The notes beneath the pieces were generated by a model. It was not told where the DNA came from, made no database searches, and saw only the letters and a program-made list of their open reading frames with translations. From IMG/VR virus record IMGVR_UViG_2713896783_000005: 4,701 nucleotides of DNA; one strand, given 5' to 3'. Origin of the DNA: a virus. Its lineage: Duplodnaviria > Heunggongvirae > Uroviricota > Caudoviricetes. This document shows positions 1 to 4,701 of this stretch, piece by piece; within the stretch, counting starts at the first letter, position 1; every line of letters begins with the position of its first letter. A program made the translations under genes and the position numbers.

Positions 1-207
1 CAGGCTCTGTTACCGGCGATCGAAAAGGCAATGCCGCCTCTGCTGGTGGCCCGTATGCGCAGTCACAGCTCTGAATATTACCGTGAGATCGTCGAACGGA
101 GGGATCGGCTGGTGAAAGATGTGGATGATTTTGTCGCAGCGGCGATCGCCTGGGGCACCCTGACTAACAGTGGGGGTCAGCCTGGTAATGCTGTTGTCGT
201 GCATTGA
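1..207 (+). CDS. 3' end of upstream gene (5'-truncated by window edge); hypothetical protein, possibly a cII-like or other early regulatory protein
   Basis: Frame 1 is open from base 1 to TGA at 205-207 (...EYYREIVERRDRLVKDVDDFVAAAIAWGTLTNSGGQPGNAVVVH); E. coli-like codons (ctg, ccg, gcg); same strand as the rest of the operon. Function not recognisable from this fragment. Confidence 0.45.
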   Translation, partial: QALLPAIEKAMPPLLVARMRSHSSEYYREIVERRDRLVKDVDDFVAAAIAWGTLTNSGGQPGNAVVVH

Positions 208-275
208 CCAACAATATTCATGCCGGATTTCTTCCGGATGTTCGAGGGTAAAGTTCGGTATCAGATGAGGTGAGT

Positions 276-420
276 ATGGCTAATGCCTGGCTCAGATTGT
301 GGCATGACATGCCAAATGATCCCAAATGGCGAACCATTGCCAGGGTCTCAGGACAGCCAATCGCAACAGTGATGGCGGTGTATATCCACCTTCTGGTGAG
401 TGCGTCACGAAATGTCACGA
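276..420 (+). CDS. 5' fragment of an O-like replication initiator gene (first copy), cut off by the N gap
   Basis: ATG at 276 with the same RBS context as the full gene at 543; encodes MANAWLRLWHDMPNDPKWRTIARVSGQPIATVMAVYIHLLVSASRNVT, identical in protein to the start of the 543-1586 CDS; runs into N at 421. Confidence 0.4.
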
Positions 421-542: not shown

Positions 543-1586
543 ATGGCTAATGCCTGGCTCAGATTGTGGCATGACATGCCAAATGACCCCAAGTGGCGAA
601 CGATTGCCAGGGTATCAGGACAGCCAATCGCAACAGTGATGGCAGTGTATATCCATCTTCTGGTGAGCGCGTCACGAAATGTCACGACATGTCACGGCGT
701 GTCACTACGTGGTCACATTGATGTCACGACGGAAGATTTAGCAAGTGCGCTTGATGTGACGGAAGACGTAATTGATTCAATTTTGCATGCAATGCAGGGG
801 CGGGTTCTGGATGGTGACCTTATTTCCGGATGGGAAAAACGTCAGGTGCTGAAAGAGGACAATGGTAACGTTTCGCAAACGGCAAAATCCCCGGCAGAGC
901 GCAAGAGAGCGCAGCGGGAGCGGGAAAAGCTGCGGAAACATAATGCTGATTGTCACGATGAGTCACGACGTGTCACGCATCTGTCACGACAAGTCACGAC
1001 AGATAAAGATACAGATAAAGATACAGATACAGAATTAAACCCCACACATAACGCGCGCGAGAGTATTCCGACCAGTGAGTCGAATGGTGCGCCGTTGCAG
1101 ACAGCCGAACCTGAATACCTGGACGGCCTGAGCGAACCGATCGGGAAATTTTCGATGACTACTGTCTGGCAGCCGTCGCCGGATTTTCGACAACGGGCAG
1201 CAGTGTGGGGTATGGCTCTGCCTGAGCCGGAATTTACACCTGCTGAGCTTGCCGCATTCCGGGATTACTGGATGGCGGAGGGGAAGGTTTTCACGCAGGT
1301 TCAGTGGGAGCAGAAATTTGCCCGCCACGTGCAGCACGTCAGGGCACAGGTAAAACCAGTCAGCAAGGGGGGAAGCCATGCAGCATCAGGTGGCACGGCA
1401 TCACGGGCAGTTCAGGAAATCCGGGCTGCACGCGAACAGTGGGAACGTGACAACGGATTTATCAGCAACGGAAACGGCCTGGAAGCTGTGGGAGCTCATG
1501 GGGGAGGTGTATTCGAACCGCTGGACTCAGAAGAACGGGGCCGCACCTTCGAAGCTCTGGATTGCCCAGATTGGTGCGATGACTGA
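543..1586 (+). CDS. Phage replication initiation protein (lambda O analogue) with N-terminal HTH-like domain and C-terminal DnaT-like ssDNA-binding domain
   Basis: ATG at 543 preceded by AAGAGG (532-537); the track's GTG at 537 lacks an RBS. The segment IGKFSMTTVWQPSPDFRQRAAVWGMALPEPEFTPAELAAFRDYWMAEGKVFTQVQWEQKFARHVQ closely matches my recollection of the E. coli DnaT C-terminal domain ([64 protein letters not shown]). Iteron arrays lie inside the gene as in lambda O. Stop TGA 1584-1586. Confidence 0.85.
   Translation: MANAWLRLWHDMPNDPKWRTIARVSGQPIATVMAVYIHLLVSASRNVTTCHGVSLRGHIDVTTEDLASALDVTEDVIDSILHAMQGRVLDGDLISGWEKRQVLKEDNGNVSQTAKSPAERKRAQREREKLRKHNADCHDESRRVTHLSRQVTTDKDTDKDTDTELNPTHNARESIPTSESNGAPLQTAEPEYLDGLSEPIGKFSMTTVWQPSPDFRQRAAVWGMALPEPEFTPAELAAFRDYWMAEGKVFTQVQWEQKFARHVQHVRAQVKPVSKGGSHAASGGTASRAVQEIRAAREQWERDNGFISNGNGLEAVGAHGGGVFEPLDSEERGRTFEALDCPDWCDD
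671..732 (+). repeat. Iteron array 1: six GTCAC(G) repeats at 10-11 bp spacing (putative initiator binding sites, origin)
   Basis: GTCAC begins at 671, 681, 691, 701, 712 and 723, about one helical turn apart. The first two repeats are also present in the upstream duplicate at 404-418. Confidence 0.6.
952..1000 (+). repeat. Iteron array 2: five GTCACG repeats at 10-11 bp spacing
   Basis: GTCACG begins at 952, 962, 972, 983 and 993; same motif and phasing as array 1. Confidence 0.6.
1001..1032 (+). repeat. A-rich tandem repeat (GATAAAGATACA x2 plus GATACA) directly after iteron array 2; possible DNA-unwinding element, encodes a DKDTDKDTDTE linker
   Basis: 12-bp unit at 1002-1013 and 1014-1025, partial unit at 1026-1031; its position next to the iterons mirrors the AT-rich region of the lambda origin. 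Confidence 0.5.
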
Positions 1587-2790: not shown

Positions 2791-3104
2791 GTGGGTGGAA
2801 GACGTGGTGCCGGGCGGAAATCATGATACTCCGGCAGTGTGCGGGAACGATGAAGGTAAAAAGCGTTGGCGCACTTATCGGACGAACTGAAGCGGCAGTG
2901 AGAACGAAGGCACGGGAGCTGGGCATCAGCATGATGTTACGTGGTGATTTTCACCCGTCGGCAAAATATTCTCAGCGTGATATTGAGCTGGCGCGGCAAC
3001 TGCATCAGAGAGGCATGCAAAGAAGGGAAATTGCCAGAAAATTAGGCATGCCGCTGCGCATAGTGAATAACTACGTTTATTTCGACAGGAGGGTGTCTGC
3101 GTGA
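2787..3104 (+). CDS. Small DNA-binding protein with two tandem GcrA-N-terminal-like HTH modules; start uncertain (GTG 2787, or ATG 2823/2850)
   Basis: Two repeats of the pattern W/Y-x-x-x-E/D-I-x-x-L...G-x-x-x-x-E-I-A/V...LG ([11 protein letters not shown]...[17 protein letters not shown] and [27 protein letters not shown]), resembling the GcrA N-terminal domain as I recall it. GTG 2787 overlaps the upstream TGA (2788-2790) as GTGA. The track's 2700 start would overlap the upstream gene by 90 nt and is rejected. Confidence 0.55.
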
Positions 3105-3328
3105 AAATCCTGTATCAGGATTACGGCCCGGTGGGGCAGGTGGTTATCAGCAGTACTGTAATGGAGTTTCGGAAGCATAACCGTGTGGTGGATGCTGTGC
3201 TGTTAACCTGTCCGGGGATATCGGCGAGTCGTGCAGGTGTGTTTATTATGAAGACGAAATTATATGGCAGTAAGGCGTGGATAAAGAAGGCGTATCGTGT
3301 AGCGTTGCAGGAGGTTAACAGTGAGTGA
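3101..3328 (+). CDS. Hypothetical small basic protein (75 aa)
   Basis: GTG 3101 preceded by AGGAGG (3087-3092) at 8 nt and overlapping the upstream stop as GTGA (3101-3104); about 11 K/R vs 5 D/E; no family recognised. Confidence 0.5.
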   Translation: MKILYQDYGPVGQVVISSTVMEFRKHNRVVDAVLLTCPGISASRAGVFIMKTKLYGSKAWIKKAYRVALQEVNSE

Positions 3329-3632
3329 AATTAAAGAAATGCCGGTAGTTCGTGACGGATATGGCTACTGGACACATCCTGAATATGAAAAATTCTGTGA
3401 TGGTCGGGAATATATTTCAACGGAAGAGTTTAACGCCTGGATGGAGGAAAATAATCTTCAATACGTCCTCTGCTTCAGAGATGAAGGATGTGCTGACCTT
3501 GATGCGTGTGATGCTGATATTTCTGCATGGGAACCGGAACGACCAGAGGGCGATGGCTGGTTTATTGGTTCCATTCATGATACGGAAGATGGCCCGGTTT
3601 GTGTCTGGTTGCGAAATAAGGCTGAAGCATAA
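3321..3632 (+). CDS. Hypothetical strongly acidic protein (103 aa)
   Basis: GTG 3321 preceded by AGGAGG (3309-3314) at 6 nt; overlaps the upstream gene by 8 nt; about 25 D/E vs 8 K/R by my count, Trp/Cys-containing; stop TAA 3630-3632. Confidence 0.6.
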   Translation: MSEIKEMPVVRDGYGYWTHPEYEKFCDGREYISTEEFNAWMEENNLQYVLCFRDEGCADLDACDADISAWEPERPEGDGWFIGSIHDTEDGPVCVWLRNKAEA

Positions 3633-3731
3633 AGGCGATAAACCAACTAACAACTAAATACTGAAGATTTAAATCAGAAACGATTTTTATTAAATCCTTA
3701 ACCGGAGGGATTCCTGCACCCTCAGAACATC

Positions 3732-3759
3732 AGGAGGCCGCCCGAAAGGGCGGTAAGAA
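3732..3759 (+). promoter_or_regulatory. Structured translation-initiation region: AGGAGG, then a CCGCCC-GAAA-GGGCGG hairpin, then 6 nt to ATG 3760
   Basis: Perfect 6-bp GC stem (3738-3743 with 3748-3753) closed by a GAAA tetraloop; consensus SD AGGAGG at 3732-3737 lies 22 nt from the ATG in linear sequence but about 6 nt if the hairpin forms. Confidence 0.35.
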
Positions 3760-3978
3760 ATGAAACATTATTTAGAAAAAAATTACCCACGAAAGAGCAG
3801 AACAACAGAGTTTCTGTTTTTCATTCTGTTTATAGTGTTGATGATACCGATATCCCCGCTATTACTGGTCTGGATAATTGGAAGGACATTTGAACCAGTT
3901 ATTGAGCTATATACCGATGTGACATGGGAATCATTCAGCGCACTGCACAATAAAATTAATCCGTATAAGGAAAACTGA
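3760..3978 (+). CDS. Small single-pass membrane protein (72 aa), AT-rich moron-like gene
   Basis: ATG 3760; hydrophobic segment FLFFILFIVLMIPISPLLLVWIIG flanked by a basic N-terminus (KNYPRKSR); rare codons (ata, aga, agg, cta, tta) and low GC contrast with neighbours; preceded by a 127-bp AT-rich non-coding stretch. Confidence 0.6.
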   Translation: MKHYLEKNYPRKSRTTEFLFFILFIVLMIPISPLLLVWIIGRTFEPVIELYTDVTWESFSALHNKINPYKEN

Positions 3979-3979
3979 T

Positions 3980-4537
3980 ATGAGCACTATTACCAGAGAA
4001 CGCGCGGAGATTAAATCATACATCACAGGCTTCCTGAGCGACTCGGCGCACGATAACAAGTCTTCAGACAGCCTGCTGGCTAATGTGTTTCGTATCGCGC
4101 TGGCATCACTGGAAGCAGAGCCGATAGCAATGGTAGTGCCTGATGAAATGGATTTGCTTACCTGCCATCTCGACGGTGTAACTAAAACATATGCTGATGG
4201 CTGGAACGCCTGCCGCGTCGCCATGCTTCAGGCCGGAAACTTTCGGGAAAATAAGAATTCGTCAACCAACAATTTTCGGGAAATCTCGGAAACGTCAACC
4301 AGATCTCCGATAACTCTGGATGGCTGGATAAGCTGTACTGAGCGAATGCCTGAAAAGAGCCAGAACGTGCTTATTTCGATGAATATCGATAGCGAGGCTG
4401 GGCCATTAATATATTCCGCACGCTATCTCGGAGGCACGTTCCGGCGCGGAGGTATAGCAGTTAGTCCGGGTAATGATCTTAGGCAAGCAACCCACTGGAT
4501 GTCGCTACCAGAACCGCCGCAGGAGGTGAATCAATGA
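3980..4537 (+). CDS. Prophage protein with DUF551-like C-terminal domain
   Basis: ATG 3980 one nt after the upstream stop, with AAGGA (3967-3971) upstream; C-terminal segment DGWISCTERMPEKSQNVLISM...ATHWMSLPEPP matches my recollection of the DUF551 signature (W...LP...HWMPLPEPP). Stop TGA 4535-4537. Confidence 0.7.
   Translation: MSTITRERAEIKSYITGFLSDSAHDNKSSDSLLANVFRIALASLEAEPIAMVVPDEMDLLTCHLDGVTKTYADGWNACRVAMLQAGNFRENKNSSTNNFREISETSTRSPITLDGWISCTERMPEKSQNVLISMNIDSEAGPLIYSARYLGGTFRRGGIAVSPGNDLRQATHWMSLPEPPQEVNQ
4237..4302 (+). repeat. In-frame imperfect 33-bp tandem duplication inside the DUF551-like gene (encodes NFRENKNSSTN / NFREISETSTR)
   Basis: TTTCGGGAAA at 4241-4250 and 4274-4283, and CGTCAACCA at 4260-4268 and 4293-4301, both 33 bp apart; located at the junction between the N-terminal region and the DUF551-like domain. 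Confidence 0.55.
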
Positions 4538-4617
4538 CCTGGCCTGAAGCATTCACAACGGTAGGAATTGCGATGGCGGTGGCGCTGGTGGTGTATTCGA
4601 TTTGCCGCTGGGGATAA
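4534..4617 (+). CDS. Candidate 27-aa hydrophobic microprotein (MTWPEAFTTVGIAMAVALVVYSICRWG), not in the ORF track
   Basis: ATG 4534 overlaps the upstream stop as ATGA; consensus AGGAGG at 4521-4526 sits 7 nt upstream; single hydrophobic stretch long enough for a short TM helix; stop TAA 4615-4617. Confidence 0.35.
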   Translation: MTWPEAFTTVGIAMAVALVVYSICRWG

Positions 4618-4701
4618 AAACGGTTTGCGGGAAAAGGATAGTTAAGTAGAATTGCTGCGGGTGCTTGAGGCTATCTGCCTCGGGCATGAACACCAACGGC
4701 A

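What the first reader, a model, noticed from the sequence alone, without database searches (positions are those of the whole stretch)
3633..3978. AT-rich moron-like insertion encoding a 72-aa single-TM protein
After the TAA at 3632 the composition shifts to AT-rich for about 350 bp: a 127-bp non-coding leader, then an ORF rich in E. coli rare codons (ata x4, cta, tta, aga, agg) encoding one transmembrane helix. The contrast with the flanking genes suggests a separately acquired gene, possibly with its own promoter. Small membrane proteins at this position in prophages are candidates for superinfection exclusion, abortive-infection effectors or membrane toxins.
Basis: partly seen in the sequence, partly recalled or inferred. 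Interest (0 to 1): 0.6.

Follow-up and report, generated by a model that had tools for sequence, protein, structure and literature searches.

The report
Known phage membrane gene, DUF4014
The AT-rich stretch holds a real, already annotated small phage membrane-protein gene of unknown function (family DUF4014, also present in Shiga-toxin phages) that sits inside an early operon of a Rac-like prophage rather than being a self-contained inserted gene, and its 'leader' is a separate, reusable ribosome-binding cassette shared with other genes.

Summary
Window 3633-3978 is the most AT-rich 346 bp of the window (38% vs 51.5% GC). The 72-aa ORF is real, rich in rare codons and has one TM helix. It is Pfam DUF4014 / PHROG 1832, 100% identical to an annotated protein in about 500 complete E. 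coli genomes. Homologs include 933W L0067 and epsilon15 gp46. It is under purifying selection (dN/dS about 0.2).

The 'moron' reading is only partly right. The ORF is a gene-sized mosaic module (breakpoints at 3760-65 and 3978-88). No promoter or terminator was found, and the next gene starts 1 nt after its stop. Low GC is a family-wide trait, and about two-thirds of it comes from amino-acid composition.

The leader is not part of the module. Its last 71 nt recur at 90-97% identity in front of a different gene (DUF7167). They carry AGGAGG, a -15.5 kcal/mol GNRA hairpin and the AUG, with the geometry of the T4 gene 38 split ribosome-binding site (22 nt reduced to 5-6).

Function is untested. 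Database labels ('acetyltransferase inhibitor', 'released from the phage') are propagated, not demonstrated. Most likely it is an N-in/C-out inner-membrane accessory protein made early in lytic growth. Interest is low to moderate.

The parts
3321..3632 (+). Upstream gene (103 aa, PHROG 1372, function unknown). It also has low GC3 (0.359) and ends with TAA at 3630-3632.
   Evidence: It travels together with 3633-3762 in L011 and L003 at 94-95% identity.
3633..3688 (+). 5' half of the 127-bp gap: AT-rich spacer that is shared only with loci carrying the same upstream gene.
   Evidence: No promoter-like site beyond chance. No ORF of 30 aa or more.
3689..3759 (+). Portable 71-nt leader cassette that recurs at 90-97% identity in front of different cargo genes (DUF4014 or DUF7167).
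   Evidence: Mean pairwise difference is 0.059, against 0.289 at synonymous sites of the adjacent ORF. No Rfam family matches it.
3705..3723 (+). First predicted hairpin of the cassette: GAGGG, 9-nt loop, CCCTC.
   Evidence: present in the MFE and centroid structures of the 87-nt fold. The only variation seen is in the loop, C/T at 3713.
3732..3737 (+). Strong Shine-Dalgarno sequence AGGAGG, 22 nt upstream of the AUG.
   Evidence: It is part of the minimal core CAGGAGG-hairpin-TA..ATG found in all copies.
3737..3754 (+). GC hairpin with a GNRA tetraloop (G.U plus six G-C pairs, loop GAAA at 3744-3747) between the SD and the AUG. When folded, the SD lies 5-6 nt from the AUG.
   Evidence: centroid -15.5 kcal/mol, z = -3.6, forms in all five contexts folded. 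(116 of 120 sampled sites are the same hairpin with 5-6 of 6 stem positions paired; the stem variants that keep all six pairs do so through G.U). T4 gene 38 precedent in PMC3014915.
3760..3978 (+). DUF4014 gene: 72-aa single-pass membrane protein. It has a basic N-terminus (residues 1-17), a TM segment (residues 18-41, nt 3811-3882), and a conserved acidic C-terminal helix ending in LHNKINPYKE.
   Evidence: Pfam PF13198, 87.2 bits, full length. PHROG 1832, E = 1e-44. Annotated WP_000683609.1. Alignment A1. dN/dS 0.20. AF2 pLDDT 79.5. Hydropathy and charge.
3776..3782 (+). A7 homopolymer at codons 6-8. It is the site of A7 to A6 frameshift alleles in two different DUF4014 alleles. It is intact in the window.
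   Evidence: The A6 form of the window-type allele is present in 7 of 504 complete E. coli genomes.
3976..3982 (+). Stop/start junction TGA-T-ATG, which couples DUF4014 to the next gene. It is the 3' breakpoint of the module.
3980..4537 (+). Downstream DUF551 gene (185 aa). This neighbour varies between loci and is not a fixed partner.

Best explanation
Window 3760-3978 is an intact copy of a known but uncharacterised phage accessory gene, Pfam DUF4014 / PHROG 1832 (same family as 933W L0067 and epsilon15 gp46). It lies in the rightward early operon of a Rac-like lambdoid prophage of EHEC-type E. coli, between the replication genes and the hok/nin-like region.

Shown:
- It is a gene-sized mosaic module swapped among lambdoid, P22-like, epsilon15-like and P1-like phages at its start codon and at its stop/next-start junction.
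- It has no detectable promoter or terminator of its own, and it is coupled to the next gene by a 1-nt gap.
- Its AT-richness is a family-wide property, largely imposed by a Phe/Ile/Leu/Lys/Asn/Tyr-rich sequence.
- The last 71 nt of the 'leader' are an independent cassette shared with other cargo genes.

Inferred:
- The gene is transcribed by read-through from the early promoter during lytic development.
- It is translated through a split ribosome-binding site. AGGAGG lies 22 nt from the AUG, and a stable GNRA hairpin brings it to 5-6 nt, as in T4 gene 38.
- The product inserts in the inner membrane N-in/C-out. It acts through its conserved membrane-proximal and C-terminal helix (PISPL...W..G...E...ELY...LHNKINPYKE) on a conserved host envelope component.
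- The most plausible class of effect is modulation of the envelope during infection, for example exclusion of superinfecting phage or inhibition of a membrane enzyme.
For: Identity:
- Pfam 87.2 bits against a cutoff of 23.2, full length. PHROG 1832.
- 100% identical DNA in about 500 complete genomes, annotated 'DUF4014 family protein'.
- 127 phage records carry homologs.

Real coding gene:
- Median dN/dS is 0.20, lowest in the C-terminal tail at 0.19.
- 24 columns are invariant across alleles of 58-99% identity.

Module boundaries:
- BLAST breakpoints fall at 3760-3765 and 3978-3988 against 933W, D6, ArgO145, pPE4 and L012.
- L011 has the same upstream gene and leader but a DUF7167 gene instead.

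Operon-embedded:
- No promoter or terminator.
- TGA-T-ATG junction in about 113/115 loci, with varying downstream genes.
- In epsilon15, g341c, 933W and D6 the gene follows its upstream neighbour with a gap of 0-1 nt.

Composition:
- Expected GC from amino acids is 0.405 and observed is 0.356.
- Family mean is 0.372 against 0.487 in the flanks.
- Prophage tRNAs with anticodons CAT (annotated Ile) and TCT.

Leader cassette:
- 90-97% identical copies in front of DUF7167.
- Five-fold more conserved than synonymous sites of the adjacent ORF.
- Hairpin of -15.5 kcal/mol in every context folded.
- 22 nt reduced to 5-6 nt, matching the T4 gene 38 case described in PMC3014915.

Topology: 5 K/R against 2 D/E before the TM, and 3 K/R against 5 D/E after it. 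The AF2 model is a helix at 14-28, a kink, then a helix at 31-66.
Against: - No experiment of any kind bears on the function. I found no paper on DUF4014, PF13198 or L0067.
- The hairpin stem shows no compensatory substitutions, only C to U changes that keep G.U pairs. The structure therefore rests on thermodynamics and sequence conservation, not covariation. The high conservation could equally reflect recent spread or recombination.
- A weak promoter, or one using another sigma factor, cannot be excluded by consensus scans.
- Frameshifted (A7 to A6) and IS1-disrupted copies occur. The gene is therefore dispensable in resident prophages, and it could even be mildly deleterious.
- Topology is predicted only from the positive-inside rule.
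Confidence: 0.6

Rival explanations
1. It is a true moron. The gene would be autonomously expressed in the lysogen from a promoter in the leader, giving the host superinfection exclusion by blocking DNA injection at the inner membrane, like HK97 gp15, P22 SieA or T4 Imm.
For: - Presence/absence polymorphism between related prophages.
- Lower GC than the surroundings.
- A small inner-membrane protein.
- An unusual 127-bp gap upstream, whereas most neighbouring genes overlap.
Against: - No promoter above chance and no terminator.
- A 1-nt gap to the next gene.
- In most phages the gene has no upstream gap at all.
- The gap sequence belongs to other units.
- No PADLOC match.
- Frameshifted and IS-disrupted copies occur in resident prophages. 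That argues against strong benefit to the lysogen.
Confidence: 0.15
2. It is a membrane toxin or abortive-infection effector. The small hydrophobic protein would depolarise or permeabilise the inner membrane, as Hok-type toxins or holins do.
For: - Single TM, with N-in/C-out topology like Hok.
- A hok/sok locus lies just downstream.
- Recurrent inactivating alleles would fit counter-selection of a toxic gene.
Against: - No antisense RNA or antitoxin partner. The downstream neighbour is variable.
- No Rfam or PADLOC match in the region.
- Purifying selection is strongest in the extramembrane C-terminal tail. That points to a specific partner rather than generic membrane damage.
- 497 of 504 complete genomes keep the A7 run of this allele intact.
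Confidence: 0.1
3. It inhibits a host O-antigen (or other surface-polysaccharide) O-acetyltransferase, as the labels 'sugar / O-polysaccharide acetyltransferase inhibitor' claim. That would make it a serotype-conversion factor.
For: - The label goes back to an older annotation of epsilon15 gp46, quoted in the g341c record. Some E. coli entries carry it too.
- Epsilon15 is known from classical work to suppress O-acetylation (own knowledge).
- Small phage proteins that alter O-antigen without being enzymes do exist, for example gnarl1-3 (PMC12373910).
- An inner-membrane location would suit an acyltransferase-3 target.
Against: - I could find no experiment behind the label, and the current epsilon15 RefSeq record has dropped it.
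- The family is common in phages of hosts with many different O-antigens, including O157, O26, O145 and K-12-infecting phages.
- The DUF4014 motif is absent from the supplements of the gnarl screen.
Confidence: 0.1
4. The conserved hairpin cassette is not a translational device. It would be a short homology 'linker' that promotes recombination between phages, or a binding or processing site (boxB-like N-type antiterminator target, RNase III site, mRNA stabiliser).
For: - Mosaic breakpoints coincide with the cassette ends.
- The cassette is far more conserved than the adjacent synonymous sites.
- It occurs twice in ArgO145, before two different genes.
- The GNRA-type loop on a GC stem resembles lambda boxB (own knowledge).
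Against: - The SD, the stem and the AUG keep a fixed register with 6-7 nt after the stem in every cargo. A pure recombination linker would not need that.
- There is no boxA-like partner in the short-core copies that directly follow a stop codon.
- The position, mid-operon and abutting a start codon, is not that of nut sites.
- These roles are not mutually exclusive with a split RBS.
Confidence: 0.25
5. It is a virion protein 'released from the phage upon host infection', as the PHROG 1832 and RefSeq viral label says.
For: Only the label itself.
Against: - The gene sits in early (ea/nin-type) operons next to replication and recombination genes in every phage examined, never among structural genes.
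- It encodes a 72-aa integral membrane protein.
- No source for the phrase turned up in the literature search.
Confidence: 0.02

Closest known systems
Pfam DUF4014 (PF13198) / PHROG 1832: 933W L0067, VT2-Sakai, epsilon15 gp46, epsilon34 gp27, g341c gp23, ES18 gp39, D6 orf103
   Same: Full-length profile match. Same length (72 aa), the same TM plus LHNKINPYKE C-terminus, the same early-operon setting, and often the same neighbours (ead/Ea22-like upstream, DUF551 downstream, as in epsilon15).
   Different: Nothing essential; it is a member. This allele has a distinct N-terminus (MKHYLEKN... against the commoner MTTLFRKE...). Unlike most members, it is preceded by a 127-bp gap with the SD-hairpin cassette instead of abutting the upstream gene.
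Morons of lambdoid phages (e.g. HK97 gp15, lambda lom/bor)
   Same: An extra gene that is present in some relatives and absent in others, with lower GC than its surroundings. In the case of HK97 gp15 it is also a small inner-membrane protein.
   Different: No own promoter or terminator was detected, and the gene is translationally coupled to the next one. It lies in the early operon, not the late one. The low GC is explained largely by amino-acid composition and is family-wide.
Split ribosome-binding sites of phage T4 genes 38 and 25
   Same: A strong SD lies too far from the AUG (22 nt, identical to gene 38). An intervening stable hairpin reduces the spacing to about 5 nt.
   Different: There is no sequence relationship and it is untested here. 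This one behaves as a portable cassette placed before several unrelated cargo genes in temperate enterobacterial phages.
Small phage inner-membrane exclusion proteins (T4 Imm, P22 SieA, HK97 gp15) and Hok-type toxins
   Same: Size class, and a single hydrophobic helix with a short extramembrane tail.
   Different: No sequence or profile similarity: PADLOC, NCBIfam and BFVD gave nothing. There is also no regulatory antisense RNA as in hok/sok.

Membership tests
Pfam DUF4014 (PF13198) | Score above the curated gathering threshold over the full-length profile | tested here: met
   87.2 bits against a cutoff of 23.2, residues 1-72 on profile positions 1-72. PHROG 1832, E = 1.1e-44.
Pfam DUF4014 (PF13198) | Conserved family residues: the PISPL kink in the TM, W38, G41, E45/E49-L-Y, and the C-terminal LHNKINPYK | tested here: met
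   All 24 invariant columns of alignment A1 are present in the window protein.
Moron (autonomous extra gene in a prophage) | Present in some closely related phages and absent from others at the same site | tested here: met
   L011 has the same upstream gene and leader with DUF7167 in its place. L009 has a different small gene before DUF551.
Moron (autonomous extra gene in a prophage) | Own promoter immediately upstream | tested here: not met
   No sigma-70-like site in 3633-3759. The best relaxed match is 8/12, reached by 97% of shuffles. This is a consensus test only; expression was not measured.
Moron (autonomous extra gene in a prophage) | Own terminator immediately downstream | tested here: not met
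   No terminator-like site in 3000-4701. The next gene starts 1 nt after the stop codon.
Moron (autonomous extra gene in a prophage) | Nucleotide composition distinct from the neighbours, indicating separate origin | tested here: inconclusive
   GC is 0.356 against 0.515. However, 0.405 is expected from the amino acids alone, the upstream gene shares the low GC3, and the trait is family-wide.
Moron (autonomous extra gene in a prophage) | Expressed from the repressed prophage | not testable with these tools
   This needs transcript mapping or reporter fusions in a lysogen.
T4 gene 38-type split ribosome-binding site (works-like comparison) | SD at a non-functional distance from the AUG, with an intervening stable hairpin that restores spacing of about 5-11 nt | tested here: met
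   AGGAGG at 3732-3737, AUG at 3760 (22 nt). Hairpin at 3737-3754, -15.5 kcal/mol, z = -3.6, leaving 5-6 nt. Gene 38 goes from 22 to 5 nt (PMC3014915).
T4 gene 38-type split ribosome-binding site (works-like comparison) | Translation depends on the structure (destabilising mutations lower it, compensatory ones restore it), or natural covariation supports the stem | tested here: inconclusive
   120 sampled sites: the 116 that are this hairpin keep 5-6 of 6 stem positions paired, but only through identity or G.U, with no compensatory pair.
Known anti-phage defence / superinfection exclusion proteins | Profile match to a described defence or exclusion family | tested here: not met
   No PADLOC hit at E <= 0.1. 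No NCBIfam hit. No BFVD structural match.
Epsilon15-type O-acetyltransferase inhibitor | Demonstrated loss of O-acetylation caused by the protein | not testable with these tools
   The label is traceable only to an older epsilon15 gp46 annotation. I found no supporting experiment.

The most novel reading that the evidence does not exclude
The ORF and its surroundings may reveal a cassette system in temperate enterobacterial phages. Small accessory genes (DUF4014, DUF7167 and others) would be exchanged between a conserved 5' joint that doubles as a structured, T4-gene-38-like ribosome-binding site and a conserved 3' TGAnATG joint. Any incoming cargo would then be immediately translatable. The DUF4014 cargo itself would be a new kind of small inner-membrane effector that binds a conserved host envelope protein through its invariant C-terminal LHNKINPYKE helix, possibly with expression switched by slippage in its A7 run.
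Probability: 0.2. Interest if true: 0.55.

Novelty: already known. Interest (0 to 1): 0.3.

Why it matters
DUF4014 is one of the commonest uncharacterised accessory genes of Shiga-toxin and other lambdoid, P22-like and epsilon15-like phages. The exact window sequence occurs in about 500 of 5426 complete E. coli genomes, and roughly half of all genomes match some part of the 346-bp region. Databases give the family two contradictory function labels, neither of which I could trace to any experiment.

Three points clear away misleading readings and define a concrete test object:
- the gene is an operon-embedded early gene rather than a lysogen-expressed moron;
- its AT-richness is intrinsic to the family;
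- its labels are propagated, not demonstrated.

The by-product is modest but may be new. It is a portable SD-hairpin-AUG leader, absent from Rfam, shared by different cargo genes and more conserved than neighbouring synonymous sites. It offers a natural example of a split ribosome-binding site outside the T-even phages, and possibly a recombination joint for gene-cassette exchange.

Tried and rejected
- Literature searches for DUF4014, PF13198 and L0067/933W returned nothing.
- 'Released from the phage' and 'acetyltransferase inhibitor' gave only irrelevant papers.
- The epsilon15 genome paper (PMC2698709) is not held. The epsilon34 genome paper does not discuss its homolog.
- I checked whether the gnarl O-antigen-modifying proteins include DUF4014. 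They are from lytic phages and Mu, and the family motif is absent from the supplements.
- PADLOC, NCBIfam and the BFVD fold search gave no hits. A single helix is in any case uninformative for fold search, so I did not run further fold searches.
- The profile search of 1.84 billion representatives found only 23 hits, all close family members or fragments, and so no remote relatives to borrow a function from.
- The Rfam scan at E <= 1 found nothing in the leader.
- The minus strand of the leader folds no better than shuffles (z = -0.3), so an antisense RNA is unlikely.
- Covariation support for the hairpin failed because the stem is nearly invariant. For that reason I did not build a covariance model.
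- The look-up for EDL933/Sakai locus tags, meant to find expression data, returned only generic names.
- An intrinsic terminator on either strand was rejected: there is no U-run after either hairpin.

Full report
**What is there**

The window is part of a Rac-like lambdoid prophage. It is 100% identical over 3321-4537 to about 500 complete E. coli genomes, including O157:H7 and O26 strains.

In the RefSeq record the gene order is:
- cro, ydaT, a DnaT-like replication gene, P, DUF1627, an HTH protein and two hypothetical genes;
- then the finding's ORF, annotated 'DUF4014 family protein' (WP_000683609.1);
- then a DUF551 gene, hok, and further on the nin/Q-type genes and two tRNAs.

TAA ends at 3632, the gap is 3633-3759 (127 bp), and the ORF is 3760-3978 (72 aa).

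**Composition**

- 3633-3978 is 38.2% GC against 51.5% for the window, and lies in the lowest 1% of 346-bp windows.
- The ORF alone is 35.6% GC.
- Re-encoding its amino acids with the codon usage of the window's other genes gives 40.5%. So about two-thirds of the deficit comes from a Phe/Ile/Leu/Lys/Asn/Tyr-rich protein.
- The remainder is a real synonymous bias: GC3 is 0.40 against 0.51 expected. The upstream gene 3321-3632 shares it (GC3 0.36), but the downstream DUF551 gene does not.
- Rare codons are enriched: 10/72 against 64/1194, p = 0.007.
- Across 65 unique family members from many phage backgrounds the ORF averages 37% GC, against 49% in its flanks. Low GC is therefore a property of the family and not a mark of recent arrival.
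- The prophage also carries a tRNA with anticodon CAT, which RefSeq calls tRNA-Ile (it would read ATA), and a tRNA-Arg (TCT).

**The protein**

- It matches Pfam DUF4014 end to end, at 87 bits against a cutoff of 23. It also matches PHROG 1832.
- Homologs occur in 127 phage records. They include 933W (L0067), VT2-Sakai, many Stx phages, epsilon15 (gp46), epsilon34, g341c, ES18 and the P1-like D6.
- A profile search of 1.84 billion representatives found only 23 hits, all close relatives or fragments. The family is narrow and enterobacterial.
- Intact copies are under purifying selection. Median dN/dS is 0.20, and it is lowest in the C-terminal tail at 0.19.
- 24 columns are invariant, among them PISPL-type prolines in the hydrophobic segment, W38, G41, E45, E49-L-Y and the C-terminal LHNKINPYK.
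- Hydropathy gives one TM segment at residues about 18-41. Charge distribution is 5 K/R against 2 D/E before it, and 3 K/R against 5 D/E after it, which predicts N-in/C-out.
- AlphaFold2 gives one long kinked helix, mean pLDDT 79.5.
- There is no match to PADLOC, NCBIfam or BFVD structures.

**Is it a moron?**

The gene is exchanged as a unit. BLAST breakpoints against 933W, D6, pPE4, ArgO145 and L012 fall at 3760-3765 and 3978-3988. L011 has the same upstream gene and the whole 127-bp leader, but a DUF7167 gene follows instead.

The other defining features of a moron fail:
- There is no sigma-70-like promoter or intrinsic terminator.
- The best relaxed promoter match in the leader is 8/12, which 97% of shuffles reach.
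- The next gene starts 1 nt after the stop codon, here and in about 113 of 115 related loci, although that next gene varies between DUF551 types, an HNH endonuclease, an 87-aa protein and others.
- In epsilon15, g341c, 933W and D6 the gene also abuts its upstream neighbour.

It is therefore an operon-embedded early accessory gene. It sits in the rightward early operon here and in the leftward 'ea' region in the P22-like and Stx phages.

**The leader**

The 127 bp are composite. Positions 3633-3688 travel with the upstream gene. Positions 3689-3759 are a separate unit.

That unit recurs at 90-97% identity in front of DUF7167 genes, after ead/Ea22-like or other genes, in many E. coli prophages and in phage pPE4. 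A shorter core, CAGGAGG-CCGCCC-GAAA-GGGCGG-TA...ATG, directly follows a stop codon in other loci. It occurs twice in ArgO145, before two different genes.

Among loci that have both the 71-nt unit and DUF4014, the unit differs by 5.9% on average, while synonymous sites of the ORF differ by 28.9%.

The hairpin at 3737-3754 is stable: -15.5 kcal/mol, z = -3.6, and it is predicted in all five contexts folded. AGGAGG (3732-3737) lies 22 nt from the AUG, and the folded stem leaves 5-6 nt. This is the arrangement described for T4 gene 38, 22 nt reduced to 5 nt (PMC3014915).

I think a split ribosome-binding site is the most likely role, possibly combined with a role as a recombination joint. The evidence has limits. 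Of 120 sampled matches to the pattern, 116 are this hairpin. Their stems vary only by changes that keep G.U pairs, apart from two single mismatches, so there is no covariation. There is no Rfam family for it, and the minus strand folds no better than chance.

**Function**

Nothing experimental exists that I could find.

- 'Sugar / O-polysaccharide acetyltransferase inhibitor' goes back to an older annotation of epsilon15 gp46, quoted in the g341c record. The current epsilon15 record has dropped it.
- 'Released from the phage upon host infection' is the PHROG label. It is implausible for an early-operon membrane protein.
- Small non-enzymatic phage proteins that alter O-antigen do exist (gnarl1-3, PMC12373910), but they are not this family.

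My best inference is that the protein is made early in lytic growth, inserts N-in/C-out, and engages a conserved envelope component through its invariant tail. Exclusion of other phages, or inhibition of a membrane enzyme, are the likeliest outcomes. This last step is inference only.

**Verdict**

The gene is already known as an annotated family of unknown function. The portable SD-hairpin leader is the one feature that may not have been described before.

Noticed in passing
window 3776-3782 (A7 run, codons 6-8 of the DUF4014 ORF): Loss of one A (A7 to A6) accounts for the two recurrent frameshifted products seen in viral contigs. It arose in two different alleles: MVTLFRKN... (26 aa, 21 copies) and MKHYLEKI... 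(24 aa, 6 copies). The A6 form of the window-type allele is in 7 of 504 complete E. coli genomes. This could be simple decay, or slippage-based on/off switching. Copies are not independent events.
   Followed up: partly
window 204-420 and 471-687, N-run 421-470: A run of 50 N is flanked by two 217-bp copies of the same sequence (the start of the ydaU-like gene and its upstream region) that are 96.3% identical, with 8 mismatches. It looks like a scaffolding join between contig ends from two paralogous prophages, not a biological tandem duplication.
   Followed up: partly
window 671-723 and 952-993: There are two clusters of GTCAC(G/T) repeats spaced about 10 bp apart inside the DnaT-like/ydaU-type replication gene. 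The pattern is that of origin iterons lying within a lambda O-like gene.
   Followed up: no
window 4534-4617: An unannotated 27-aa hydrophobic ORF (MTWPEAFTTVGIAMAVALVVYSICRWG). It has a good SD (AGGAGG) and overlaps the DUF551 stop codon (ATGA). It is 100% identical over 85 bp in phage ArgO145 and 98% in pPE4. It is possibly another small membrane protein just upstream of hok/sok.
   Followed up: partly
window 4659-4701: A partial match to Rfam sok antitoxin RNA (RF01794, 26.7 bits, cut off by the window end). A Hok/Gef gene follows in the full prophage (L001 10508-10663).
   Followed up: partly
L001 14807-14882 and 14983-15059 (same prophage, about 5 kb downstream of the window): The prophage encodes a tRNA with anticodon CAT, annotated tRNA-Ile by RefSeq (the lysidine type that would read ATA), and a tRNA-Arg (TCT). 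These match rare codons that are enriched in the DUF4014 ORF and in several neighbouring genes.
   Followed up: partly
L002 (phage ArgO145) 2970-2995 and 4001-4071; window 3980-4010: The SD-hairpin core occurs twice in one phage, before two different genes. The varied genes that follow DUF4014 share similar first codons (M-x-T-I/L-T-K/R-E...). This suggests a conserved 3' joint as well as the 5' one, so small genes may be exchanged between two short conserved linkers.
   Followed up: partly
L003 (phage Rac-SA53) 3461-4226: In Rac-SA53 an IS1 element has inserted at the very start of the DUF4014 ORF (8-bp target duplication AAACATTT). This is another independent inactivation of the gene.
   Followed up: no
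L004 (PP818812.1, 'Actinobacillus phage vB_Apl-pPE4'): This record, said to be from Actinobacillus pleuropneumoniae, carries the E. coli Rac-like module (replication genes, leader cassette, DUF7167, DUF4014, hok) at 84-98% DNA identity to the window. The host assignment looks doubtful, or the phage came from an enterobacterial contaminant.
   Followed up: no
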